Below are positions 26,877 through 63,422 of a stretch of DNA of 64,000 bases, piece by piece; within the stretch, counting starts at the first letter, position 1; every line of letters begins with the position of its first letter. Source of the stretch: Mobula hypostoma (lineage: Eukaryota); assembly GCF_963921235.1 (NCBI RefSeq), contig NC_086097.1:116748001-116812000 (forward strand), in the 5' to 3' direction. Both the position numbers and the translations under genes were made by a program. The notes beneath the pieces were generated by a model. It did no database searches. It saw only the letters and a program-made list of their open reading frames with translations, and was not told the origin of the DNA.

Positions 26877-28233
26877 TGTCATAAAGCGGTGGCTGGAGAT
26901 GGACCCAAGTGCAAGACACAGACACTGAAGTACTAGGGACAGGACTAGGATACAGGACGATGGCAAGGACATGGACAGGAAAACCAGGAACCTGGAACAG
27001 GACCGAACAAGAGCGCTAGGAGCCCGGACTTGGACTCCGAGCCAGAGACTGGACAAGGACCCATTACCTGGGTCTTGCCTCTGGCTCGGACCCCAGAATT
27101 AGGCAAGGACGAGGCTTGGCAGGCAGGCCAGATGAGGCTGGAGTCTTCAGGCTTGAGGCTAGAGACTAGAGGCAAGGCTTGGCAGGAGGCAGGAGGCTGG
27201 AGTCTTCAGGCTTGAGGCTAGAAGCTAGAGACTTGGCTTGGCTTGGCAAGAGGCTAGAGACTTGGCTTGGCTTGGCAGGAGGCTGGATTCTTCAGGCTTG
27301 AGGCTAGGCAGGAGGCTGGAGTCTTCAGGATTGAGGCTAGGCCGGAGGCTGGAGTCTTTAGGCTTGAGACTAGAAGCTAGAGACTTGGCTTGGCTTGGCA
27401 AGAGGCTAGAGGCTAGAGACTTGGCTTGGCTTGGCAAGAGGCTAAAGACTTGGTTTGGCTTGGCAGGATGCTGGATTCTTCAGGCTTGAGGCTAGGCAGG
27501 AGGCTGGAGTCTTCAGGCTTGAGGCTAGGCTGGAGGCTGGAGTCTTCAGGCTTGAGACTAGGCAGGAGGCTGGAGTCTTCAGGCTAGAGGCTAGGCAGGA
27601 GGCTGGAGTCTTCAGGCTTGAGGCTAGGCAGGAGGCTGGAGTCTTCAAGCTAGAGGCTTGAGGCTAGGCAGGAGGCTGGAGTCTTCAAGCTAGAGGCTTG
27701 AGGCTAGGCAGGAGGCTGGAGTCTTCAGGCTTGAGGCTAGGCAGGAGGATGGAGTCTTCAGGCTAGAGGCTTGAGGCTAGGCAGGAGGCTGGAGTCTTCA
27801 GGCGTGAGGTTAGGCAGGAGGCTGGAGTCTTCAGGTGTGAGGCTGAGCAGGCTCCTCCTGGGCAGGGCGCGGTTCACCTGGGCAGGGTGCGGATCACCAC
27901 CCGACAGAGGCAATGGACAGGAAGGGAGCTAGGTACAAGGTGGCTCCAGGACAAGACTGCAGGCGAGACGAGGCGAGAGTTACCAGCAAGACAAGGCAGG
28001 GCTTCAGGCGAGGAAACAGAAGGCAGAGGAAGGGATACAAGGAGTAAGGACAAGAACAATCCAGCAGCCACGCCCTGGTCTCTGAAGGTATTTATGCAGC
28101 CAGCCCCAACTAGCATCAGCTGCCTCAATTAACTCAACAAGAACAGAAACAGGGTAGGTAGGAAAACCTGCAGCAAGGGTCGATGGACCAGACCATGAAC
28201 CAGAATACGGACTTCACAGACTGGACCATGACA
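26877..28233. mobile_element. Solo LTR (Gypsy-type) with internal tandem repeats
   Basis: TGTCAT...ATGACA termini; 5-bp TSD AAAAT (26872-26876, 28234-28238). Confidence 0.85.
27105..27850. repeat. ~33-bp minisatellite inside the LTR
   Basis: GGCTAGGCAGGAGGCTGGAGTCTTCAGGCTTGA units with GGCTT sub-repeats. Confidence 0.9.
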
Positions 28234-29480: not shown

Positions 29481-31014
29481 ATAGTGACATCTTTTTACAA
29501 GATTGTAGAAGAAAATAGATCATAGAAAGTAGTAAAACATGCAAGATTGAGTAGATGGAACCAAATTGTATCTTCCAGTACCTGGCCTTGAAATTCAATC
29601 TCTTTTGTTGGCTTTGAATTTGCTTTTGTCTGCTTGTTATAAAACTTGCAGATGTATAATCTCTGACTACTTGCAAATGAGTGTGTATCAAACACAAATA
29701 AAAATTCATACTCAGGCCTAGAAGTTGCCCCAAGCTGTGTTGTTGCTTAAACAATATTTCATTCTGGATTTTCCTCCTGTTGCTCTTGGAAGTCACATAA
29801 AAACATCAATAGTGAGATTCGCAGAACAGTGATTTTTTTTTAATGCATGTTCCTATTGATGTGAATGTGCCCGATTCAGTATGGCATTCTATGTTGATAT
29901 ATTGCAAGCTGATGTAGGGGTTAGTGAATAACTCAGCAAGCAACTTTACAGTCAACTCTCAAATGACTTGAGGAGCCAGGCAAAGGGACATGCGTGACGT
30001 TTTTCTTGAAGCCTCATTGAGGAGAAGGATGCTAGTTGGGTGTCAGCCTTTTAAATTCAAGAGTTTTAGAGGAAACAAATGGTTTAGAGGAATTCAAATG
30101 GTTTCATTAAGATCCACATGTATCTTTCTAAACTGCAGCGAGTATACTCCCAGAGCCATCAAACACAAATTCCTTAAAAATTCCTTCCATGTTCATTTTT
30201 CATTCAGCAGCAAGAGGTATCCACAAACAAATGAGACACTATATGTACATTAAAGGTAACAAAAACTACTTTATTATGATATAAAAAACTACTTAATATC
30301 CTCTTCAATAAACTACAGTAGGATAGAACACAAAGAATACTTATGAACCACTCATTGGACTGATGCTTGCAGTGCCAAAAGAAATCCCAGATGTCGAACA
30401 AGTGATTCTACTGTTCTCTCCTTCTCTCTCTCATTTTGTAGCCTAGGGAAAATACACGCACAGGACAACAAATACTTCTATGGGCCTTTAATTCCTTTAT
30501 CTGTTTTACCACGGGAGTGACTGACCTGTTCTTCATCACTACCATAAAATATTTTGTATATTGTACTTCTGTCCTGGTACCAAATTTTGTAGCCTGGGGA
30601 AAAACACACACGCAGGAGAACAAATTTTTTGGGGGATTTTAATTCCTTTATCTGTTTTAGATGTTTTAATGCAGAAAGAGGGTATCAAAATAAAAACGAC
30701 AAAATGAGTTGACCAAAGTGAAGCACCTTCAATTACTCCAAAAAACTGAGGTTTGGTAAAAATACTGAAAGGCTTTTATTCGCTGTACAATACGACCTCC
30801 ACAGTGAGTGTCTGCCCCCGGACTGAGGGGGAGGAGCAAGGCGAACACCTTTATACAGGACTCTGTGGGAGGAGCCACAGGGGCAGTCAGCAGAGGTGTG
30901 TGTCCAGACAGGTAACCGAGTTACAACATATATACATGGTTTACCACATTCACTCCTTTTTTTAAAAAGAGTCCCGCGGGGTGAAGTGACTGACAATATT
31001 TACAAGAAGTATAT

Positions 31015-33246
31015 TTACAGGTTAAGTCTATCAGGCGGTCGAGTCCGTCGCTGTGATCTACGTAGCACCGGCGATGGTGGTTGTGTTGGCTCCGGCCTGA
31101 CTTCAGGTGCCAGCACGTTAGGCATCGGTAATCCCTCGTACGTGTGCGTCGCACCCGGTATGGGAGTGTCGTGTGGTGTCTGTATAGGGTTTGGGGTGCA
31201 CGGTGTCTCGTAGGTACATACATTGGTGGGTACGGGGTCAATAGTCACCACGGAGTGTTCAGGGTGGGGGCCTGGAGCTCCTGCGGGCGCCAGGTCGTGG
31301 ATGGAGACCGTGTCCTCCCGCCCATCAGGTAAAACCACGTAGGCATACTGGGGGTTCGCATGAAGTAAGTGAACACTCTCGAATATCGGGGGGTATTTAT
31401 TGCTCCTCGCATGTTTCCGGAGCAGCACTGGCCCCGGGGACATCAGCCAAGATGGTAGGGTGGTTCCAGTGGTCGATTTTCTGGGAAAAGAAAAGAGCCG
31501 CTCATGAGGGGTGGCATTGGTGGCTGTGCATAACAGGGAGCGGATGGAGTGGAGTGCCTCGGGAAGGACCTCATGCCAGCGGGAGACCGGCAGTCCCTTT
31601 GACCTGAGGGCTAAGAGTGTGGCTTTCCACACTGTGCCATTCTCCTCCTCTACCTGTCCATTCCCCCGGGGATTATAGCTCGTGGTCCTACTGGTTGCAA
31701 TCCCCCTAGCCAGTAGATATTGGCACAGCTCGTCACTCATAAACGAGGACCCTCTGTCACTGTGGATATAGCATGGGTATCCGAACAGAGTGAAGAGCTT
31801 GCACAGGGCTTTTATAACTGACGTGGTAGTGGTGTCGGGGCAGGGGATGGCGAAGGGGAACCACGAGTACTCGTCAATTACGTTAAGAAAGTACACATTG
31901 TGGTCGGTGGAGGGAAGGGGGCCCTTAAAGTCAACACTCAGTCGCTCAAAGGGGCGGGTGGCCTTGATGAGTGGTGCCTTTTCGGGTCGGTAGAAGTGCG
32001 GTTTGCACTCTGCGCAGACTTGGCAGTCCCTGGTCATCATCCTGATCTCCTCAAGGGAGTAAGGCAGGTTCCGGGCTTTCACGAAGTGGAAAAGCCGGGT
32101 GACTCCCGGGTGGCAAAGGTCTACATGTAGGGCGTATAACTGGTCGATCTGCGCGCTGGCGCGCATTTCCCGGGATAGGACATCGGAGGGCTCGTTGAGC
32201 TTCCCAGGCCTGTACATGATATCATTGTTGTAGGTGGAGAGTTCGATTCTCCACCTCAGAATTTTATCATTTTTGATTTTGCTCCGCTGCTGATTATTAA
32301 ACATGAACGCAACTGAGCGCTGGTCAGTTAGCAGGGTGAACCTTTTGCCGGCAAGATAGTGCCTCCAGTGCCTTATAGCTTCCACTATGGCCTGGGCCTC
32401 TTTCTCTACTGCAGAGTGCCGAATTTCAGGGCCTTGAAGGGTACGGGAGAAGAACGCCACTGGTCTTCCTGCCTGGTTGAGGGTAGCAGCCAGCGCAAAG
32501 TCGGAGGCGTCACTCTCTACTTGGAAGGGAATGGCCTCATCCGCCGCCTGCATTGCTGCTTTGGCAATGTCCCCTTTTATGTGGTTGAAGGCCACGCGGG
32601 CCTCGGCAGAGAGGGGGAATGTGGTGGACTTGACCAGGGGGCGGGCCTTGTCTGCATAGTTAGAGACCCATTGGGCGTAATATGAAAAGAAGCCCAGGCA
32701 CCTTTTGAGGGCTCTGAGGGTATTGGGAAGAGGGAGTTCCAACAGGGGGCACATACGGTCGGGGTCAGAGCCAATGACTCCATTCTCCACGACACACCCA
32801 AGGATAGCAAGTCGGGTGGCCCCAAATACACACTTGTCCTTGTTATAGGTGACTTTGAAAGATTTGGCCGCTTGGAGAAATTTTTGGAGGTTGTTGTCAT
32901 GATCCTGCTGGTCGTGACCGCAGATGGTCATGTTATCCAGATATGGGAACGTGGCCTTCAGTTGGCACTGGTCCACCATCCGGTCCATTGCCCTCTGGAA
33001 GACAGATACACCATTCGTAACACCAAAGGGGACGCGCAGGAATTGATAAAGCCTGCCGTCCGCCTTGAAGGCAGTGTAAGGGCGGTCCTCCCGGCGGATG
33101 AGGAGCTGGTGATAAGTGGATTTTAGGTCTATGGTCGAGTACACCTTGTACTGTGCTATCTGATTGACCATATCCGCGATGCGGGGTAGAGGGTACGCGT
33201 CGAGCTGCGTGAACCTATTGATGGTCTGGCTATAGTCCACGACCAT
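31015..33246 (-). CDS. Gypsy pol: RT, RNase H and integrase; open for 743 aa but frameshifted from the upstream part
   Basis: DAYPLPRI, PFGVTNG, YLDN, VESDASD, TDQRS, HHCC (HVDLCHPG..CQVC), SVDFKG, HSDRG, GNGQVE; C-terminal RRSQRRTRPPDRLNL; no chromodomain. Confidence 0.93.
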   Translation of the reverse strand: MVVDYSQTINRFTQLDAYPLPRIADMVNQIAQYKVYSTIDLKSTYHQLLIRREDRPYTAFKADGRLYQFLRVPFGVTNGVSVFQRAMDRMVDQCQLKATFPYLDNMTICGHDQQDHDNNLQKFLQAAKSFKVTYNKDKCVFGATRLAILGCVVENGVIGSDPDRMCPLLELPLPNTLRALKRCLGFFSYYAQWVSNYADKARPLVKSTTFPLSAEARVAFNHIKGDIAKAAMQAADEAIPFQVESDASDFALAATLNQAGRPVAFFSRTLQGPEIRHSAVEKEAQAIVEAIRHWRHYLAGKRFTLLTDQRSVAFMFNNQQRSKIKNDKILRWRIELSTYNNDIMYRPGKLNEPSDVLSREMRASAQIDQLYALHVDLCHPGVTRLFHFVKARNLPYSLEEIRMMTRDCQVCAECKPHFYRPEKAPLIKATRPFERLSVDFKGPLPSTDHNVYFLNVIDEYSWFPFAIPCPDTTTTSVIKALCKLFTLFGYPCYIHSDRGSSFMSDELCQYLLARGIATSRTTSYNPRGNGQVEEENGTVWKATLLALRSKGLPVSRWHEVLPEALHSIRSLLCTATNATPHERLFSFPRKSTTGTTLPSWLMSPGPVLLRKHARSNKYPPIFESVHLLHANPQYAYVVLPDGREDTVSIHDLAPAGAPGPHPEHSVVTIDPVPTNVCTYETPCTPNPIQTPHDTPIPGATHTYEGLPMPNVLAPEVRPEPTQPPSPVLRRSQRRTRPPDRLNL

Positions 33247-35106
33247 CTATTCTTCTCCCTGTTCCGAACAACGACCACCTGCGCCCTCCAAGGACTTCTG
33301 CTTGCTTCAATGATCCCCTCCCTAAGCAGCCAGTGCACCTCCGACTTAATGAAAGCTCTGTCCCCCGCGCTGTACCTCCTGCTTTTAGTTGCCACGGGTT
33401 TACAGTCGGGGGTCAGGTTGGTGAACAGCGGTGGGAGAGGGATCCTGAGGGTGGAGAGGCCGCAAGTGGTGTCGGTAGTGTGGCAGTTGGCATGATGTTG
33501 GGTGGGATACGCGGGTCGGTGTGGGTGTGTGGTCAGTAGCGGGGTACATGACATATCTCTACAAAACAGGGGATTTATGACAGTAATTGGCGGGAGGGGC
33601 CCATCATACTCCATTGTCACGCTTTTCAGGTGGCTCTGGAAGTCCAACCCCAACAACACAGGGGCACACAGTTGAGGCAAGACCAGTAACGTAAAGTCCC
33701 GATATTCTGTGCCCTGCACCACTAGTGTCGCTACAGAACCCCCCCGGATGTCTGTTGTATGTGACCTGGAGGCCATGGTGACCCTCCGACTTACCGGCCG
33801 TATCATGAGTCCACAATGCTGCACCGTGGATAAAACTCTCCATGCTGCCCATGTCAAACAGGCAGCTTGTCCTGTGCCCCTCCACCAGGATGTCCATCAT
33901 TGACCTTGCGAGCTGGTGGGGAGCGCTTTGGTCGAGGATCACGGAAGCCAGGGTGGGGTCGCTGTCTTGGTCCGGCGTCATGGGATGCCCCATGAGCACC
34001 CATTGGTCGTAGGCGGTGGGAGGTGGTGCCGACCAAGATGGCCGCCCCCATGTCTCGCACGTGGTGGTGGCGTGCAGGGAAGATGGCGGCAGGCAAGATG
34101 GCGACCCCCACGTCTCGCACGTGGTGGCAGTGTGCAGGGAAGATGGCGGCCCCATGTCTCACACGTGGTGGTGGCGTGCAGGGAAGATGGCGGCAGGCAA
34201 GATGGCGACCCCCACGTCTCACACATGGTGGCAGTGTGCAGGGAAGATGGCGGCAGGGAAGATGGCGGCCCCCATGTCTCGCACGTGGTGGTGGCGTGCA
34301 GGGAAGATGGCGGCAGGGAAGATGGCGAACCCCACGTCTCGCACACGGCGCTGCTCGATCCCGCTCGCGGTTTTGACTTACAGACCTTGGAGAAGTGGCC
34401 CTTCTTTCCGCAGCTGGAACAGGTAGCTTGTCGAGCCGCGCAGTGTTTCTGAGGGTGCTTCTCCAGTCTGCAGAAGTAGCACTTCGCGGACTCACGACTG
34501 GCTGCAGCCGATGTCGATTCGCCGGCGGGTTGCGGGGTCTGCGGTGCCCACGAGGCCATCGGGGGATCGCGTGCCTGGAGAGCCTCGGAGTTATGCAGAG
34601 TGGCCTCCAACGTATCAGCCAGCTCGATCGCTGAACTTAGGGTAAGATCGGCTTTTTCCAGCAGCCGCTGGCGCACGTACACTGACCTGGTCCCCATAAT
34701 GAAGGCGTCTCTCACTAGGAGTTCTGCATGCTGCGCCGCCGTCAGCTCCTGGCAATTGCAGGCTCGCACGAGCGTCTGTAGGGCCCGGACAAACTCAGCA
34801 CTCGATTCCCCAGACCGTTGTTGCCGTGTCGCTAAGCGATGCCGAGCATAGACGCTGTTTATCGGCCGCAGGTATTGTCTTTTGAGTGCGTTCATCGCGC
34901 CGTCGTAGTTCGGCTGGTCTCTGATCAGCGAATAAACCCGTGGACTGGCCCTGGAGAGTAGAACTCTGCGCTTCGCTACGGGGTCGGTCGCTTTAATCTC
35001 CTCTAGATACGCTTTGAAGCAGGCCAGCCAGAGTTCGAAAGCGTTTCCAGCGTCAGGCATTTGTGGATCGAGGTCTAATTTGTCTGGTCTCAGGGACCTG
35101 TTCCAT
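33247..35106 (-). pseudogene. Gypsy gag and protease, frameshifted
   Basis: ATG at 35106 followed by a 1-bp frameshift (MEQV/LRPDKL); two CCHC knuckles CYFCRLEKHPQKHC and CSSCGKKGHFSKVC; protease LFDMGS (DTG-like), VLLGLDF, SPWRAQVVVV. Confidence 0.88.
34030..34345. repeat. 60-bp tandem repeat in the gag-protease linker (~5 copies)
   Basis: CETWG(S/P)PS(S/C)LPPSSLH(A/T)TTT units. Confidence 0.9.
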
Positions 35107-36764
35107 GTTTTAAAATGTACAGCAAATAAAATTGAAGCACCTTCAATTACTCCAAAAGACTGAGATCTGGTAAAATACTGAAAGACTTTTATTCGCTGTA
35201 CAATACGACCTCCACAGTGAGTGTCTGCCCCCGGACTGAGGGAGAGGGGCAAGACGAACACCTTTATACAGGACTCTGTGGGAGGAGCCACAGGGGCAGT
35301 CAGCAGAGGGGTGTGTCCAGACAGCTAACCGAGTTACAACATATATACATGGTTTACCACACAAAGGCAGTTCCCGCTGTTACAATCTCAGTTTAATTTC
35401 GGACCACACCCTTGTTACGCATGCAGTATGAAAATAACTAAAATAAAACATACAAGATCAATACGGTAGTGGCATTTCTTTAAAAAATACAAACAACATT
35501 AGAATCCCACCAACCCTGTACCTTATATATATCATGAAAATAGAATAAATACATCTCCTCTTAACTAAGAGATATACTCACATTTGCACACACATGCTTA
35601 ACTTCCAAACACATATAAACTAGACCTTGAAACAAGTTCTCCACGCTCACACAACGTGAACATAAATTAACACATTCACATTACTCCATTATATTCACAT
35701 TTGATCATGAAACAATGAAGAAAGAAAAATAAACCTTTACAAGAACTTGTGCAATATATTGCCTTGTAGTTGAATTACTAAAAAGTAATTACTACCTTGT
35801 AGGCCGATAAAGAACGTCACCCAATCACACAATCCAGCGCTGATCAATTTACTCGTAAAAATCTAAAGTATCCACATGTAAAGCATATCAAATTACCGAT
35901 ATTCCAGATTTACAAACAAGTATAAATGAATTTATATGGATATTATCAAATATTATTCACTTTTCCTCACCAAACCTGGGAAAAGCACTCAAACACCATT
36001 CTCTGTAGAACATTGCAACTCTTTGTTCTACTCCATCCACATAAAATGACGTCACCGTTTTCTCTCAAAGGCACGGGCAGCTATTTTAGCATTATCAAGG
36101 TGAATATATGTGTCCTTTAACAATTAAAAAGTGATACTCAACGGTCACCTAATTACACTCACTCTCGCTCTCTGTCACCCTCCCCCTCTCACATTCTCTC
36201 TCACTCCCTCCCTCTCTCTCTCGCTCTCTCCCTTTGTAACACTGCACCCTATGTCTCATCGTGACTTCAGTGAGTGTATACCTGTCCCTTGTTATACCCT
36301 TAAATTCCCTTATCCCAGTACTTTTCCAAGGTACCAGGTGGTACCTTCTTATCTCTTATGATCTATTGGTTTAAACAGAATTTAAGTCCTGATGAAGAGT
36401 CTCTGTCCAAAATGTCGACTGTTTATTCACCTCAATAGATGCTGCCTTACCTTTTGAGTTCCTCTAGCAATTTGTGTATGTTGCTTAAAAACAGTCACAG
36501 CACATTTTACAGTAAAGTACGTTTTCCACGGCTATCAGTTATCCAATTTGTCCCTCAGATTATGCATAGCAGGGCAGGGGACAGGGGACAGGGAAGAAAA
36601 ATGTCACAGTGCAGTGTAAAACTGACCAATTATTTAAAATTCAGCTGGAACAAGTAGATATAGCAATCCATTTCAGAAGCTATTTTAATATTTACACTTT
36701 TGCACATAAAGGAAGAATTGATTATCACTTCAAGAAAATTGAATTCTGTCCTTACAGCTTCTCA

Positions 36765-53410: not shown

Positions 53411-53856
53411 GTGGTCCATCTGGCCTTTCTCGACTGCTCTGCCATTTAATGTAATCATGCCTAATCTTCTAAATCCAGTAGCCTGTTCCAGTTTTCTCCC
53501 CAAATCCCTTGATCCTTGCAGCCCTATGAATTTTATCACGCTTGTCAAGCACAGTTTTCTTTTCATTAAAACCACATTGATTTTGAATGTGATATAATTT
53601 TCTGAAAATCAGTTGCAGCTTCCCTATTAATAGATTGAAGAGTTTTCCCCACATGTTAAGTTCGGCTAGGTGACTGGTAACTATTTTCAATTACCATTAT
53701 GACTACAACTGTTACTACAGTTACTGCTGTCACTGCTATTACTCTGCAATCTCTTGAGCCGGGTACGATGTTCACCTAAAAGGTCGCCTATTAGTGCTCC
53801 TCAGGAAGCTGAAGAGGACAATCCGAGATATTCATATTTTGGTGCAGTGTGGAAAG

Positions 53857-56036
53857 ACTCGGTGGTGGCTGTGGTTCGTGGACAACACTCGGTGGTGGCT
53901 GTGGTTCGTGGACAACACTCGGTGGCTGTGGTTCGTGGACAACACTCGGTGGCTGTGGTTCACGGACAACACTCGGTGGTGGCTGTGGTTCGTGGACAAC
54001 ACTCGGTAGCTGTGGTTCGTGGACAACACTCGGTGGTGGCTGTGGTTCGTGGACAACACTCGGTGGTGGCTGTGGTTCACGGACAACACTCGGTGGCTGT
54101 GGTTCGTGGACAACACTCGGTGGTGGCTGTGGTTCGTGGACAACACTCGGTGGTGGCTGTGGTTCACGGACAACACTCGGTGGCTGTAGTTCGTGGACAA
54201 CACTCGGTGGTGGCTGTGGTTCGTGGACAACACTCGGTAGTGGCTGTGGTTCGTGGACAAAACTCGGTGGCTGTGGTTCGTGGACAACACTCGGTGGTGG
54301 CTGTGGTTCACGGACAACACTCGGTGGTGGCTGTGGTCCATGGACAACACTCAGTGGTGGCTGTGGTTCACGGACAACACTCGGTAGTGGCTGTGGTTCA
54401 TGGACAACACTCGGTGGCTGTGCTTTCAGGACAACACTCGGTGGTGACTGTGGTTCATGGACAACACTCAGTGGCTGTGGTTCGTGGACAACACTCGGTG
54501 GTGGCTGTGGTTCGTGGACAACACTCGGTGGTGGCTGTGGTTCATGGACAACACTCGGTAGTGGCTGTGGTTCACGGACAACACTCGGTGGCTGTGGTTC
54601 GTGGACAACACTCAGTGGTGGCTGTGGTTCACGGACAACACTCGGTGGTGGCTGTGGTTCATGGACAACACTCAGTGGTGGCTGTGGTTCACGGACAACA
54701 CTCGGTGGTGGCTGCGGTTCACGGACAACACTCGGTGGTGGCTGCGGTTCACGGACAACACTCGGTGGTGGCTGTGGTTCACGGACAACACTCGGTGGCT
54801 GTGGTTCGTGGACAACACTCGGTGGTGGCTGTGGTTCATGGACAACACTCAGTGGTGGCTGTGGTTCGTGGACAACACTCGGTGGTGGCTGTGGTTCATG
54901 GACAATACTCGGTGGCTGTGGTTCGTGGACAACACTCGGTGGTGGCTGTGGTTCATGGACAACACTCAGTGGTGGCTGTGGTTCACGGACAACACTCGGT
55001 GGCTGTGGTTCGTGGACAAAACTCGGTGGCTGTGGTTCGTGGACAACACTCGGTGGTGGCTGTGGTTCACAGACAACACTCGGTGGTGGCTGTGGTCCAT
55101 GGACAACACTCGGTGGCGGCTGTGGTTCACGGACAACACTCGGTGGTGGCTGTGGTCCATGGACAACACTCGGTGGTGGCTGTGGTTCACGGACAACACT
55201 CGGTAGTGGCTGTGGTTCACGGACAACACTCGGTGGCTGTGGTTTCTGGACAACACTAGGTGGTGACTGTGGTTCGTGGACAACACTCAGTGGTGGCTGT
55301 GGTTCGTGGACAACACTCGGTGGCGGCTGTGGTTCATGGACAATACTCGGTGGCTGTGGTTCGTGGACAACACTCTGTGGTGGCTGTGGTTCACGGACAA
55401 CACTCGGTGGTGGCTGTGGTTCATGGACAATACTCGGTGGCTGTGGTTCATGGACAACACTCTGTGGTGGCTGTGGTTCGTGGACAACACTCAGTGGTGG
55501 CTGTGGTTCACGGACAACACTCGGTGGTGGCTGTGGTTCACGGACAACACTCGGTGGTGGCTGTGGTTCATGGACAACACTAGGTGGTGACTGTGGTTCG
55601 TGGACAACACTCAGTGGTGGCTGTGGTTCGTGGACAACACTCGGTGGCGGCTGTGGTTCATGGACAATACTCGGTGGCTGTGGTTCGTGGACAACACTCT
55701 GTGGTGGTTGTGGTTCGTGGACAACACTCGGTAGTGGCTGTGGTTCACGGACAACACTCGGTAGTGGCTGTGGTTCACGGACAACACTCGGTGGCTGTGG
55801 TTCGTGGACAACACTCGGCGGTGGCTGTGGTTCACGGACAACACTCGGTGGTGGCTGTGGTTCATGGACAACACTCAGTGGTGGCTGTGGTTCACGGACA
55901 ACACTCGGTGGCTGTGGTTCGTGGACAAAACTCGGTGGCTGTGGTTCGTGGACAACACTCGGTGGTGGCTGTGGTTCACGGACAACACTCGGTGGTGGCT
56001 GTGGTCCATGGACAACACTCGGTGGCCAACACTCGG
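53857..56036. repeat. 27/30-bp minisatellite, array 1
   Basis: GGACAACACTCGGTG(GTG)GCTGTGGTTC(GT/AC/AT) units. Confidence 0.97.
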
Positions 56037-58159: not shown

Positions 58160-61100
58160 TCTTGAGCCGGGTACGATGTTCACCTAAAAGGTCGCCTATT
58201 AGTGCTCCTCAGGAAGCTGAAGAGGACAATCCGAGATATTCATATTTTGGTGCAGTGTGGAAAGACTCGGTGGTGGCTGTGGTTCGTGGACAACACTCGG
58301 TGGTGGCTGTGGTTCGTGGACAACACTCGGTGGCTGTGGTTCGTGGACAACACTCGGTGGCTGTGGTTCACGGACAACACTCGGTGGTGGCTGTGGTTCG
58401 TGGACAACACTCGGTAGCTGTGGTTCGTGGACAACACTCGGTGGTGGCTGTGGTTCGTGGACAACACTCGGTGGTGGCTGTGGTTCACGGACAACACTCG
58501 GTGGCTGTGGTTCGTGGACAACACTCGGTGGTGGCTGTGGTTCGTGGACAACACTCGGTGGTGGCTGTGGTTCACGGACAACACTCGGTGGCTGTAGTTC
58601 GTGGACAACACTCGGTGGTGGCTGTGGTTCGTGGACAACACTCGGTAGTGGCTGTGGTTCGTGGACAAAACTCGGTGGCTGTGGTTCGTGGACAACACTC
58701 GGTGGTGGCTGTGGTTCACGGACAACACTCGGTGGTGGCTGTGGTCCATGGACAACACTCAGTGGTGGCTGTGGTTCACGGACAACACTCGGTAGTGGCT
58801 GTGGTTCATGGACAACACTCGGTGGCTGTGCTTTCAGGACAACACTCGGTGGTGACTGTGGTTCATGGACAACACTCAGTGGCTGTGGTTCGTGGACAAC
58901 ACTCGGTGGTGGCTGTGGTTCGTGGACAACACTCGGTGGTGGCTGTGGTTCATGGACAACACTCGGTAGTGGCTGTGGTTCACGGACAACACTCGGTGGC
59001 TGTGGTTCGTGGACAACACTCAGTGGTGGCTGTGGTTCACGGACAACACTCGGTGGTGGCTGTGGTTCATGGACAACACTCAGTGGTGGCTGTGGTTCAC
59101 GGACAACACTCGGTGGTGGCTGCGGTTCACGGACAACACTCGGTGGTGGCTGCGGTTCACGGACAACACTCGGTGGTGGCTGTGGTTCACGGACAACACT
59201 CGGTGGCTGTGGTTCGTGGACAACACTCGGTGGTGGCTGTGGTTCATGGACAACACTCAGTGGTGGCTGTGGTTCGTGGACAACACTCGGTGGTGGCTGT
59301 GGTTCATGGACAATACTCGGTGGCTGTGGTTCGTGGACAACACTCGGTGTTGGCTGTGGTTCATGGACAACACTCAGTGGTGGCTGTGGTTCACGGACAA
59401 CACTCGGTGGCTGTGGTTCGTGGACAAAACTCGGTGGCTGTGGTTCGTGGACAACACTCGGTGGTGGCTGTGGTTCACGGACAACACTCGGTGGTGGCTG
59501 TGGTCCATGGACAACACTCGGTGGCGGCTGTGGTTCACGGACAACACTCGGTGGTGGCTGTGGTCCATGGACAACACTCGGTGGTGGCTGTGGTTCACGG
59601 ACAACACTCGGTAGTGGCTGTGGTTCACGGACAACACTCGGTGGCTGTGGTTTCTGGACAACACTAGGTGGTGACTGTGGTTCGTGGACAACACTCAGTG
59701 GTGGCTGTGGTTCGTGGACAACACTCGGTGGCGGCTGTGGTTCATGGACAATACTCGGTGGCTGTGGTTCGTGGACAACACTCTGTGGTGGCTGTGGTTC
59801 ACGGACAACACTCGGTGGTGGCTGTGGTTCATGGACAATACTCGGTGGCTGTGGTTCATGGACAACACTCTGTGGTGGCTGTGGTTCGTGGACAACACTC
59901 AGTGGTGGCTGTGGTTCACGGACAACACTCGGTGGTGGCTGTGGTTCACGGACAACACTCGGTGGTGGCTGTGGTTCATGGACAACACTAGGTGGTGACT
60001 GTGGTTCGTGGACAACACTCAGTGGTGGCTGTGGTTCGTGGACAACACTCGGTGGCGGCTGTGGTTCATGGACAATACTCGGTGGCTGTGGTTCGTGGAC
60101 AACACTCTGTGGTGGTTGTGGTTCGTGGACAACACTCGGTAGTGGCTGTGGTTCACGGACAACACTCGGTAGTGGCTGTGGTTCACGGACAACACTCGGT
60201 GGCTGTGGTTCGTGGACAACACTCGGCGGTGGCTGTGGTTCACGGACAACACTCGGTGGTGGCTGTGGTTCATGGACAACACTCAGTGGTGGCTGTGGTT
60301 CACGGACAACACTCGGTGGCTGTGGTTCGTGGACAAAACTCGGTGGCTGTGGTTCGTGGACAACACTCGGTGGTGGCTGTGGTTCACGGACAACACTCGG
60401 TGGTGGCTGTGGTCCATGGACAACACTCGGTGGCGGCTGTGGTTCACGGACAACACTCGGTGGTGGCTGTGGTCCATGGACAACACTCGGTGGTGGCTGT
60501 GGTTCACGGACAACACTCGGTAGTGGCTGTGGTTCATGGACAACACTCGGTGGCTGTGGTTTCTGGACAACACTAGGTGGTGACTGTGGTTCGTGGACAA
60601 CACTCAGTGGTGGCTGTGGTTCGTGGACAACACTCGGTGGCGGCTGTGGTTCATGGACAATACTCGGTGGCTGTGGTTCGTGGACAACACTCTGTGGTGG
60701 CTGTGGTTCACGGACAACACTCGGTGGTGGCTGTGGTTCATGGACAATACTCGGTGGCTGTGGTTCATGAACAACACTCTGTGGTGGCTGTGGTTCACGG
60801 ACAACACTCGGTGGTGGCTGTGGTTCACGGACAACACTCGGTGGTGGCTGTGGTTCATGGACAACACTAGGTGGTGACTGTGGTTCGTGGACAACACTCA
60901 GTGGTGGCTGTGGTTCGTGGACAACACTCGGTGGCGGCTGTGGTTCATGGACAACACTCGGTGGCTGTGGTTCGTGGACAACACTCGGCGGTGGCTGTGG
61001 TTCACGGACAACACTCGGTGGTGGCTGTGGTTCACGGACAACACTCGGTGGTGGCTGTGGTTTCTGGACAACACTAGGTGGTGGCTGTGGTTTCTGGACA

Positions 61101-63422
61101 ACACTCAGTGGTGGCTGTGGTTCGTGGACAACACTCGGTGGTGGCTGTGGTTTGTGGACAACACTCGGTGGTGGCTGTGGTTCACGGACAACACTCGGTG
61201 GTGGCTGTGGTTCATGGACAATACTCGGTGGCTGTGGTTCGTGGACAACACTCTGTGGTGGTTGTGGTTCGTGGACAACACTCGGTAGTGGCTGTGGTTC
61301 ACGGACAACACTCGGTGGCTGTGGTTCGTGGACAACACTCGGCGGTGGCTGTGGTTCACGGACAACACTCGGTGGTGGCTGTAGTTCACGGACAACACTC
61401 GGTGGCGGCTGTGGTTCATGGACAACACTAGGTGGTGGCTGTGGTTCACGGACAACACTCGGTAGTGGCTGTGGTTCACGGACAACACTCGGTGGCTGTG
61501 GTTTCTGGACAACACTAGGTGGTGACTGTGGTTCGTGGACAACACTCAGTGGTGGCTGTGGTTCGTGGACAACACTCGGTGGCGGCTGTGGTTCATGGAC
61601 AATACTCGGTGGCTGTGGTTCGTGGACAACACTCTGTGGTGGCTGTGGTTCACGGACAACACTCGGTGGTGGCTGTGGTTCATGGACAATACTCGGTGGC
61701 TGTGGTTCATGAACAACACTCTGTGGTGGCTGTGGTTCACGGACAACACTCGGTGGTGGCTGTGGTTCACGGACAACACTCGGTGGTGGCTGTGGTTCAT
61801 GGACAACACTAGGTGGTGACTGTGGTTCGTGGACAACACTCAGTGGTGGCTGTGGTTCGTGGACAACACTCGGTGGCGGCTGTGGTTCATGGACAACACT
61901 CGGTGGCTGTGGTTCGTGGACAACACTCGGCGGTGGCTGTGGTTCACGGACAACACTCGGTGGTGGCTGTGGTTCACGGACAACACTCGGTGGTGGCTGT
62001 GGTTTCTGGACAACACTAGGTGGTGGCTGTGGTTTCTGGACAACACTCAGTGGTGGCTGTGGTTCGTGGACAACACTCGGTGGTGGCTGTGGTTTGTGGA
62101 CAACACTCGGTGGTGGCTGTGGTTCACGGACAACACTCGGTGGTGGCTGTGGTTCATGGACAATACTCGGTGGCTGTGGTTCGTGGACAACATTCGGTGG
62201 TGGCTGTGGTTCATGGACAACACTAGGTGGTGACTGTGGTTCATGGACAACACTAGGTGGTGACTGTGGTTCGTGGACAACACTCAGTGGTGGCTGTGGT
62301 TCGTGGACAACACTCGGTGGCGGCTGTGGTTCATGGACAACACTCGGTGGCTGTGGTTCGTGGACAACACTCGGCGGTGGCTGTGGTTCACGGACAACAC
62401 TCGGTGGTGGCTGTGGTTCACGGACAACACTCGGTGGTGGCTGTGGTTTCTGGACAACACTAGGTGGTGGCTGTGGTTTCTGGACAACACTCAGTGGTGG
62501 CTGTGGTTCGTGGACAACACTCGGTGGTGGCTGTGGTTTGTGGACAACACTCGGTGGTGGCTGTGGTTCACGGACAACACTCGGTGGTGGCTGTGGTTCA
62601 TGGACAATACTCAGTGGCTGTGGTTCGTGGACAACACTCTGTGGTGGTTGTGGTTCGTGGACAACACTCGATAGTGGCTGTGGTTCACGGACAACACTCG
62701 GTGGCTGTGGTTCGTGGACAACACTCGGCGGTGGCTGTGGTTCACGGACAACACTCGGTGGTGGCTGTAGTTCACGGACAACACTCGGTGGCGGCTGTGG
62801 TTCATGGACAACACTAGGTGGTGGCTGTGGTTCACGGACAACACTCGGTAGTGGCTGTGGTTCACGGACAACACTCGGTGGCTGTGGTTTCTGGACAACA
62901 CTAGGTGGTGACTGTGGTTCGTGGACAACACTCGGTGGTGGCTGTGGTTTGTGGACAACACTCGGTGGTGGCTGTGGTTCACGGTTGAGTGTTTTGATTG
63001 TTCAATCCTAGTTTGCAGCTGCGAAAGGGCTGGTGAGATTAAGAGATACGGAGAGATAGCTACTGGATTTAGACTACATTGAATGGCAATGCAGAGAGCA
63101 GCTGCCATTTGCTCTCTGTGGCATTATGGAGATCGCTGTCATGTAGCACAGCTCCCTCTTAAGCAGATTTCCTCCAGGTGTATCTATTGACGGCAATGCC
63201 TTCCCAGTTTTTAGATGCAATGTTGAATTTCTTCAGGCTGATTTTGATGATATCTTTAAAGTGTTTCCTCTGCCCACCAAGGAATCGTTGACCTTCCTTC
63301 AACGGGGTGTACAAGATCTGCTTGGGGAGACTTGAGTTGGGCATTCAGATGATATGACCTGTCAATTGGAGTTGGTCTTGTTTTATCGTGGTAGAGTTCA
63401 CATCCTTACATAATCTTGATCT
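58160..63422 (-). mobile_element. RTE-clade LINE 3' fragment hosting the minisatellite
   Basis: QLQLTGHII, MPNSSLPKQILY..GGQRKHFKDIIKISLK..WRK right of the array; [19 protein letters not shown] (C2H2-finger remnant) left of it. Confidence 0.8.
58265..62984. repeat. 27/30-bp minisatellite, array 2, with higher-order structure
   Basis: Same unit as array 1; internal block repeats. Confidence 0.97.

What the first reader, a model, noticed from the sequence alone, without database searches (positions are those of the whole stretch)
35116..35202. Gypsy element with no tRNA primer site: PBS complementary to its own LTR (candidate self-priming)
Seen: on the sense (minus) strand the 5' LTR ends ...GGTGCTTCA and is followed by ATTTTATTTGCTGTACA, not the TGG expected of a tRNA PBS. 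The 16-mer at 35116-35131 is the reverse complement of LTR sequence 35187-35202 (TGTACAGCGAATAAAA on the sense strand). The match is 15/16, and the mismatch is a G-U wobble in RNA. A hairpin ATTGAAG-gtg-CTTCAAT also spans the LTR end. Established: Tf1 of fission yeast and the Tf1/sushi group prime from their own transcript. Inference: this element has no chromodomain yet may self-prime. The paired segment lies ~60 nt downstream of the TATA-like TATAAAG (~35262-35268) and contains the AATAAA signal, so the duplex could also mask the 5'-LTR poly(A) signal.
Basis: partly seen in the sequence, partly recalled or inferred. Interest (0 to 1): 0.7.

Follow-up and report, generated by a model that had tools for sequence, protein, structure and literature searches.

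The report
Self-priming Gypsy retrotransposon clade in animals
This jumping gene has no tRNA landing site; the site instead pairs with a stretch of its own end-repeat, and related families keep the pairing with different letters, so the group likely starts copying itself with its own RNA, a trick likely evolved separately from that of fission-yeast Tf1.

Summary
Confirmed. A decayed Ty3/Gypsy copy (30719-35361, minus strand; 229/230-bp LTRs, 5-bp target duplication), probably from a ray, has no TGG primer site. Bases +2 to +17 after the 5' LTR pair 16/16 (one G-U) with its own LTR; 2 of 3000 shuffles reach that. In 18 of 19 related families the site pairs 10-21 nt with the family's own LTR, with 19 different sequences and a fixed inner register (cross-family mean 5.9; 0 of 100,000 permutations). 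Eight of 12 held-out loci repeat it. All 12 Gypsy outgroups carry TGG. The families form one clade (100/100) without a chromodomain. Grouping with fungal chromoviruses is rejected (AU p=0.001), with all chromoviruses not (p=0.08). Best reading: self-priming (0.8), likely of independent origin. Poly(A)-signal masking is at most secondary: only 10 of 19 duplexes hold the hexamer. The transcription start is unmapped; here TATA and Inr motifs put it about 35 nt upstream of the duplex, unlike Tf1. No description found in ten literature searches. This scan noted what seems the same clade twice before on other DNA.

The parts
35133..35361 (-). 5' LTR, 229 bp, TG...CA
   Evidence: loose contig ends pile up at 35133 and 35361
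30719..30948 (-). 3' LTR, 230 bp, 220/230 identical to the 5' LTR
35362..35366 (-). target-site duplication CTTTG, left copy
30714..30718 (-). target-site duplication CTTTG, right copy
35116..35131 (-). primer-binding site (+2 to +17 after the LTR), no TGG, complementary to its own LTR
35132..35132 (-). unpaired +1 base between LTR end and PBS (unpaired in 19 of 19 families)
35187..35202 (-). predicted self-primer segment (LTR nt 160-175)
35188..35193 (-). AATAAA hexamer at the 3' end of the paired segment (candidate poly(A) signal)
   Evidence: sequence
35137..35186 (-). predicted long U5 stem starting right after the primer segment (35170-35186 with 35137-35150); many relatives have a short RCC...GGY hairpin here
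35262..35268 (-). TATA-like TATAAAG; its first base varies in 28-46% of laid DNA depth
35234..35239 (-). Inr-like TCAGTC, 31 nt after the TATA; predicted start 35237 (motif consensus recalled, start not mapped)
33978..35106 (-). gag with CCHC knuckle, running into 60/44-bp repeats; frame broken
33156..33896 (-). frame holding the aspartyl protease and the start of RT (out of frame with its neighbours)
31015..33246 (-). RT - RNase H - integrase, 743 aa; no Chromo and no SH3_Tf2-1 hit
30949..30963 (-). polypurine tract ending ...GAA next to the 3' LTR
30774..30789 (-). 3'-LTR copy of the primer segment, identical to the 5' copy

Best explanation
This is a decayed copy of a widespread animal Ty3/Gypsy clade whose primer site pairs with the element's own LTR instead of a tRNA, so it likely primes reverse transcription with its own RNA. 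Shown: the 12-18 nt after LTR position +1 are complementary to an LTR segment 32-76 nt upstream of the LTR end, family by family, with a fixed inner edge at +2/+3 and a ragged outer edge. Inferred: the 5' end of the genomic RNA folds back. The RNA would be cut just 3' of the duplex, at its junction with the adjoining stem (usually ...AAA|RCC), probably by the element's RNase H as in Tf1. The new 3'-OH would be extended across the 1-2 spacer bases into U5. The R sequence left between the cut and the poly(A) site would serve the first strand transfer. In about half of the families the duplex would also bury the 5'-LTR poly(A) signal, while the 3'-LTR copy, with no PBS behind it, stays free. In this family the start is predicted about 35 nt upstream of the duplex, which would make the primer a capped fragment of about 50 nt held by its last 16 bases; the start is unmapped.
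For: (1) Window duplex 16/16, 2 of 3000 shuffles; other copies are Watson-Crick at the wobble. (2) 19 families: own-LTR run from +3 has mean 13.4 against 5.9 cross-family; at least 10 nt in 18 of 19; own LTR strictly best in 16, tied in 2; 0 of 100,000 permutations. The +3 to +13 words are 19 different sequences, with 2-4 Watson-Crick pair types at each position from +5 to +16. (3) Watson-Crick pairing in 17-19 of 19 families at +2 to +14, falling to background by +19; +1 never pairs. This is the register of a primer site: outgroup TGG starts at +1 to +4, and the fungal-type chromovirus control L150 pairs with its own LTR from +3. (4) 0 of 33 copies have TGG; 12 of 12 outgroup Gypsy elements do. 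(5) Held-out loci: 8 of 12 give Watson-Crick runs of 12-16 against null means of about 5. (6) L071 carries one change in both LTRs and the matching change in the PBS, relative to near-identical L074/L075/L077. (7) A hairpin starts at the first base after the segment in 12 of 19 families (top 10% of LTR positions), as expected of a cleavage junction. (8) Pairing persists without a canonical poly(A) hexamer in 9 of 19. (9) Precedent: Tf1/Tj1 self-priming by RNase H cleavage (PMC4600332, PMC5341516, bioRxiv 10.1101/2022.12.06.519325; passages read).
Against: No RNA end, cleavage product or cDNA intermediate was observed; only contigs were available. Tf1 uses the very 5' end of the RNA, whereas TATA+Inr here point to an upstream start. 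Inr-like motifs are only weakly enriched upstream in relatives (13 of 19 against 8.9 expected, p=0.037). The post-primer hairpin is missing in 7 of 19 by the 26-nt test, the window among them (it has a longer stem). Some mismatches are uncompensated: one family at +15 in 5 of 7 copies, +18 in three copies of another, terminal mismatches in L004 and L072, and the decayed L041 (run of 6). 4 of 12 held-out loci failed the WC-only scan: L062 and L066 duplicate L064, whose 11-bp duplex has a G-U; L033 is a decayed copy; L019 shows no match in the ~105 nt available. In 8 of 19 families the LTR end was placed by eye and in 2 by a contig-end overlap, so the register is independent of the pairing in only 9. 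One null scan reached 17 in a microsatellite-rich locus (L087).
Confidence: 0.8

Rival explanations
1. The duplex is a regulatory hairpin that hides the 5'-LTR poly(A) signal (or serves packaging), and priming uses some other, unidentified primer.
For: AATAAA or ATTAAA lies inside the duplex in 10 of 19 families, the window included; the fold is stable.
Against: 9 of 19 families keep the duplex with no canonical hexamer in it, as do held-out L007, L028, L032 and L088. A masking stem has no reason to end at +2/+3 in every family. No other primer site is left, since 0 of 33 copies have TGG.
Confidence: 0.08
2. The primer has this sequence but comes in trans or from the 3' end: the 3'-R copy of the same or a second genomic RNA, or a short transcript from a solo LTR, trimmed at the AAA end.
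For: The 3' LTR carries the identical segment, so covariation cannot tell the two copies apart. LTR bins are covered far more deeply than internal bins in DNA contigs (not a copy number). Dictyostelium Skipper is suspected of a non-Tf1 self-priming route (PMC5006619, passage).
Against: It needs removal of the downstream R bases and the poly(A) tail. The 5' copy lies 32-76 nt from the LTR end and folds back intramolecularly in 19 of 19 predicted folds.
Confidence: 0.08
3. A host tRNA fragment or other conserved small RNA primes at this site.
For: Half-tRNA priming is known in Copia lineages (PMC6317226, passage). No host tRNA set could be compared (no genome held).
Against: The 19 PBS words all differ, and each matches its own LTR rather than a shared sequence. 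A mature tRNA end needs TGG, absent in 33 of 33. No relevant Rfam match over 34900-35500.
Confidence: 0.03
4. Chance AT-rich complementarity.
For: The Watson-Crick-only run in this copy is 8 nt, reached in 150 of 3000 shuffles.
Against: Family copies pair fully; 0 of 100,000 permutations across families.
Confidence: 0.01

Closest known systems
Tf1/Tf2 (Schizosaccharomyces pombe), Tj1 (S. japonicus) and the Tf1/sushi group of chromoviruses
   Same: Ty3/Gypsy; no tRNA PBS; PBS next to the 5' LTR complementary to the element's own LTR; a neighbouring stem at the predicted cut. A fungal-type chromovirus fetched here (L150) shows a 10-bp own-LTR pairing from +3.
   Different: No Chromo or SH3_Tf2-1 domain; a separate clade in RT-RH and RT-RH-IN trees. 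Duplex 11-22 nt with a ragged outer end rather than an 11-mer (the Tf1 length is recalled). The primer may be internal, not 5'-terminal, and ends in a poly(A)-signal-like hexamer in about half of the families. A third 'pretzel' duplex with the leader was not consistently seen.
Mag lineage of Ty3/Gypsy (A/B/C clades; MolGy3 and MolGy11 group with it per PMC6238403)
   Same: Nearest branch in both trees (96/91 and 98/95); short LTRs, 5-bp duplications, CCHC Gag, single Gag-Pol frame in relatives. The 'Mag-like' label of rows L126, L131, L133 rests on recalled motifs.
   Different: The two Mag-like rows with an LTR pair (L126, L131) have TGG tRNA sites; the self-pairing clade sits on a long stem (1.0-1.7 changes per column) at 23-28% RT-RH identity. 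Whether it equals a named MolGy/PolGy clade was not tested.
TAR (Ty1/copia) and Tcn1 lineages of plants
   Same: Self-priming predicted from PBS-LTR complementarity; shows the trait has arisen more than once (PMC6317226, passages).
   Different: A different superfamily (TAR) or a chromovirus (Tcn1); plant hosts.
Skipper of dictyostelids
   Same: TGG replaced by a pyrimidine-rich site after the LTR; non-canonical priming suspected (PMC5006619, passages).
   Different: Skipper has a chromodomain and no complementary LTR segment; here the complement is present in nearly every family.

Membership tests
Ty3/Gypsy LTR retrotransposons | LTRs with TG...CA ends, target duplication, PPT | tested here: met
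Ty3/Gypsy LTR retrotransposons | domain order Gag-PR-RT-RH-IN | tested here: met
   best solved relative Ty3 Gag-Pol, E 5e-49
Tf1/sushi group (chromoviruses) | chromodomain at the integrase C-terminus | tested here: not met
   no PF00385 in the window Pol, in 4 of 4 relatives scanned or in the precomputed domains of 120 listed homologues; controls L150 and P0121 are positive
Tf1/sushi group (chromoviruses) | GPY/F-type SH3_Tf2-1 module | tested here: not met
Tf1/sushi group (chromoviruses) | RT-RH-IN groups with fungal chromoviruses | tested here: not met
   AU p=0.0013 for the clade plus 3 fungal-type rows; Tf1 and sushi themselves were not available as rows
Chromoviruses as a whole | sister or member of the chromovirus branch | tested here: inconclusive
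   the best trees place it with Mag-like rows, but AU does not reject a join with all chromoviruses: p=0.083 (RT-RH-IN), p=0.14 (RT-RH, 2 plant rows)
Tf1-type self-priming mechanism | PBS next to the LTR complementary to own LTR, no tRNA site | tested here: met
Tf1-type self-priming mechanism | primer is the 5'-terminal bases of the transcript | not testable with these tools
   no raw RNA reads; motifs suggest an upstream start in this family
Tf1-type self-priming mechanism | three-duplex 'pretzel' structure | tested here: inconclusive
   central duplex in 19 of 19 folds; adjoining hairpin in 12 of 19; U5-end or leader stems in some folds only
Tf1-type self-priming mechanism | cleavage by the element's RNase H | not testable with these tools
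   needs biochemistry
Mag lineage | tRNA PBS starting TGG | tested here: not met
   0 of 33 copies; Mag-like rows L126 and L131 have it
Mag lineage | falls inside the Mag A/B/C clades with reference elements | not testable with these tools
   no reference sequences in hand; sister to Mag-like rows only

The most novel reading that the evidence does not exclude
A large animal Gypsy clade, from sea anemones to rays, evolved self-priming independently of Tf1/sushi and does it with an internal primer. The RNA is cut tens of bases from the cap, at a duplex/hairpin junction that often coincides with the poly(A) signal. One fold-back then both makes the primer and silences the 5'-LTR polyadenylation site.
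Probability: 0.35. Interest if true: 0.75.

Novelty: new variant of a known kind. Interest (0 to 1): 0.58.

Why it matters
In the papers read, self-priming among Ty3/Gypsy elements is treated as the mark of the Tf1/sushi chromoviruses. A second, chromodomain-free clade of animal elements with the same signature would show that escape from host tRNA primers arose again and spread widely (1652 proteins at E<=1e-50 among 8000 candidates, a count that may include other clades). It would explain a class of 'no PBS' elements that tRNA-based annotation misses. It also gives natural variants with which to ask whether RNase H can cut out an internal primer, and whether priming and poly(A)-site choice are coupled.

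Tried and rejected
No whole genome is held, so there is no host tRNA comparison and no copy census; ARAGORN found 0 tRNAs in the window. Viral contigs held no relative of the clade. No RNA holder is on record, and laid contigs gave no start sites. A search of the supplements of PMC13524379 for PBS words was uninformative, since the positive-control word also gave 0. The Atlas gave only generic RT-RNase H clusters. A Chromo search of 5 contaminated MAGs rang nowhere, controls included. The profile search of protein representatives failed on size. An '11-nt primer starting AG' idea (G ten bases before the end in 17 of 19 families) was considered. Pairing continues to +14 to +17 in most families, so a fixed 11-mer is not supported, though uncompensated changes at +15 and +18 suggest the functional core is about 13 nt or less. 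L057 was left out of the first tree (short match), and L018 out of the held-out scan (36 nt upstream). The clade could not be matched to a named MolGy/PolGy clade: those papers give no PBS data (0 hits for 'PBS'), the supplements of PMC6238403 were only listed (one slide file unreadable), and bioRxiv supplements are closed.

Full report
OBSERVATION. The finding lies at the 5' end of a Ty3/Gypsy element on the minus strand, 30719-35361. The LTRs are 229 and 230 bp, 220/230 identical, with TG...CA ends, a CTTTG duplication and a purine tract before the 3' LTR. The coding region is broken over several frames and shows Gag with a CCHC knuckle, protease, RT, RNase H and integrase, with no chromodomain. 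The best protein hits are from rays (Mobula hypostoma 92%, Hypanus sabinus 75-82%) and catsharks, then unnamed proteins at 53-69% and a sea anemone, Actinostola. The host is probably a ray (inference). After the LTR come one base and then 16 bases complementary to LTR nt 160-175 (35187-35202): 15 Watson-Crick pairs and one G-U. Of 3000 shuffles, 2 reach 16. Folding gives this duplex plus an inner stem in both MFE and centroid. Contigs of two DNA runs carry a Watson-Crick partner at the wobble position in 96-97% of depth, so the wobble looks particular to this copy. The two guessed-RNA runs show 98% (X10) and 60% (X9, where the rest is a third letter).

RELATIVES. An alignment of 51 proteins fetched 80 of 570 metagenome loci and 8 MAG contigs. 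Of these 88, 32 were scored with the window (33 copies, 19 families), and 12 more were found afterwards by their Gag N-terminus. The other 44 lacked a usable LTR/gag junction. The LTR end was fixed by a second LTR with diverging flank in 9 families, by a contig-end overlap in 2, and by eye in 8. The run of pairs starting at +3 averaged 13.4 against the family's own LTR and 5.9 against other families' LTRs (maximum 13; 3 of 342 at 11 or more). It was at least 10 in 18 of 19; the own LTR was strictly best in 16 and tied in 2; 0 of 100,000 permutations matched. All 19 words at +3 to +13 differ, and each position from +5 to +16 shows 2-4 Watson-Crick pair types. Pairing is 17-19 of 19 at +2 to +14, 16, 14, 11 and 7 at +15 to +18, background from +19, and 0 at +1. 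None of the 33 copies has TGG. Of the 12 held-out loci, 8 gave Watson-Crick runs of 12-16 (null means 4.5-5.0; maxima 7-9, one 17). The other four were two duplicates of L064, a decayed copy (L033) and L019, with no match in about 105 nt.

WITHIN FAMILIES. L071 differs from near-identical L074/L075/L077 by one base in both LTRs and by the complementary base at PBS +8, as expected if the PBS is recopied from the primer or the pair is under strict selection. Mismatches further out persist uncompensated (+15 in 5 of 7 copies of one family; +18 as G-U in 3 of 4 of another), which suggests a functional core of about 13 nt or less. L004 has a change near the primer end in both LTRs but not in the PBS; L072 and L047 have single PBS mismatches. 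These fit last-cycle errors or later decay but are not support.

CONTROLS. Two MAGs holding much host DNA supplied other Gypsy elements. All 12 with a usable LTR pair (11 from those MAGs, 1 nested in L003) have TGG starting at +1 to +4, with Watson-Crick self-runs of only 3-6; one G-U-rich run reached 11. L150, which has Chromo and SH3_Tf2-1 domains and fungal kin, pairs 10 bp from +3 with its own LTR, a positive control for Tf1/sushi geometry.

STRUCTURE AND SIGNALS. The paired LTR segment ends 32-76 nt before the LTR end, in AA at its last-but-one positions in nearly all families, and is followed by RCC in 13 of 19. A hairpin starting at that first base ranks in the top 10% of LTR positions in 12 of 19; the window has a longer stem instead. 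A canonical poly(A) hexamer lies in the duplex in 10 of 19 families. In the window, TATAAA (35268) and an Inr-like TCAGTC 31 nt later predict a start at 35237, 35 nt upstream of the duplex (motif consensus recalled). Loose contig ends show related subfamilies with an Inr-like word at the same spacing and a variant TATA. In the other families no TATA lies upstream, and Inr-like words are weakly enriched (13 of 19 against 8.9, p=0.037). The start is therefore open.

PHYLOGENY. RT-RH (44 rows) puts all self-pairing families in one clade, 100/100, with Mag-like rows as sister (96/91). RT-RH-IN (29 rows) repeats this (100/100; 98/95), with plant and fungal chromoviruses together elsewhere (100/100). 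AU tests reject a join with the fungal rows (p=0.0013) but not with all chromoviruses (p=0.083; p=0.14 on RT-RH with two plant rows). The clade's stem is long, so its sister is uncertain. Clade labels of the outgroups are recalled from motifs and domain order; Tf1 and sushi were not rows. The element is not a member of Tf1/sushi by domain content or tree; independent origin is likely, not shown.

MECHANISM. Shown: family-specific complementarity in primer-site register, absence of a tRNA site, and a frequent adjoining stem. Inferred: fold-back of the 5' RNA, a cut at the duplex/stem junction by RNase H as in Tf1, extension into U5, and strand transfer through the short R left 3' of the cut. 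Masking of the 5' poly(A) signal is a likely secondary role in about half of the families. Confidence 0.8. Rivals: regulatory hairpin with another primer 0.08; the same sequence supplied from the 3' R or in trans 0.08; tRNA fragment 0.03; chance 0.01.

LITERATURE. Ten searches found no description of self-priming in a chromodomain-free animal Gypsy clade. The library lacks most subscription papers, Repbase Reports and GyDB. Passages read: PMC6317226 (self-priming in Tf1/sushi, Tcn1, TAR); bioRxiv 10.1101/2022.12.06.519325 (pretzel, Tf1/sushi as chromoviruses); PMC5341516; PMC4600332; PMC5006619 (Skipper); PMC6238403 and PMC8556966 (MolGy clades, no PBS data); PMC3601003; PMC6934838; PMC2864245; PMC5445492; PMC13524379. 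[quoted passage not shown] Supplements of the MolGy papers were not read and may hold sequences that name this clade.

EARLIER SCAN NOTES. e1-7857539 and e1-8041440 describe what seems the same clade on other DNA. They are not independent evidence; their central claim was retested here on my own loci. My title follows their wording.

VERDICT. A real feature and a strong comparative case for self-priming: a new variant of a known mechanism in a separate lineage. Interest 0.58.

Noticed in passing
window 41896-43558: 59-bp tandem array, 28 copies, 99% identical, open in several frames
   Followed up: no
window 53850-56025 and 58258-62981: 30/27-bp arrays giving long open ([10 protein letters not shown])n frames of up to 1600 aa; the upstream flank recurs at 4408-bp spacing (51629 and 56037), suggesting a tandem duplication or an assembly repeat
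   Followed up: partly
window 34018-34374: 60/44-bp repeats inside the element between the Gag knuckle and the protease
   Followed up: no
window 27108-27851 and 44129-44932: 33-bp minisatellite and an 800-bp TG-rich tract
   Followed up: no
L039 3786-8200: an inverted copy from the L001 family surrounds the matched Pol; its PBS pairs fully with its LTR by eye
   Followed up: partly
G001, G002: bacterial MAGs of 8-12 Mb carry 109 and 150 retrotransposon RNase H matches, i.e. much animal host DNA
   Followed up: partly
L150 4955-5189 and 1-100: an IMG/VR 'virus' contig is a fungal-type chromovirus with a 10-bp self-primer signature
   Followed up: yes
L016 and L087: near-identical LTR ends in two different samples; the primer segment lies only about 24 nt from the LTR end, the shortest seen
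   Followed up: no
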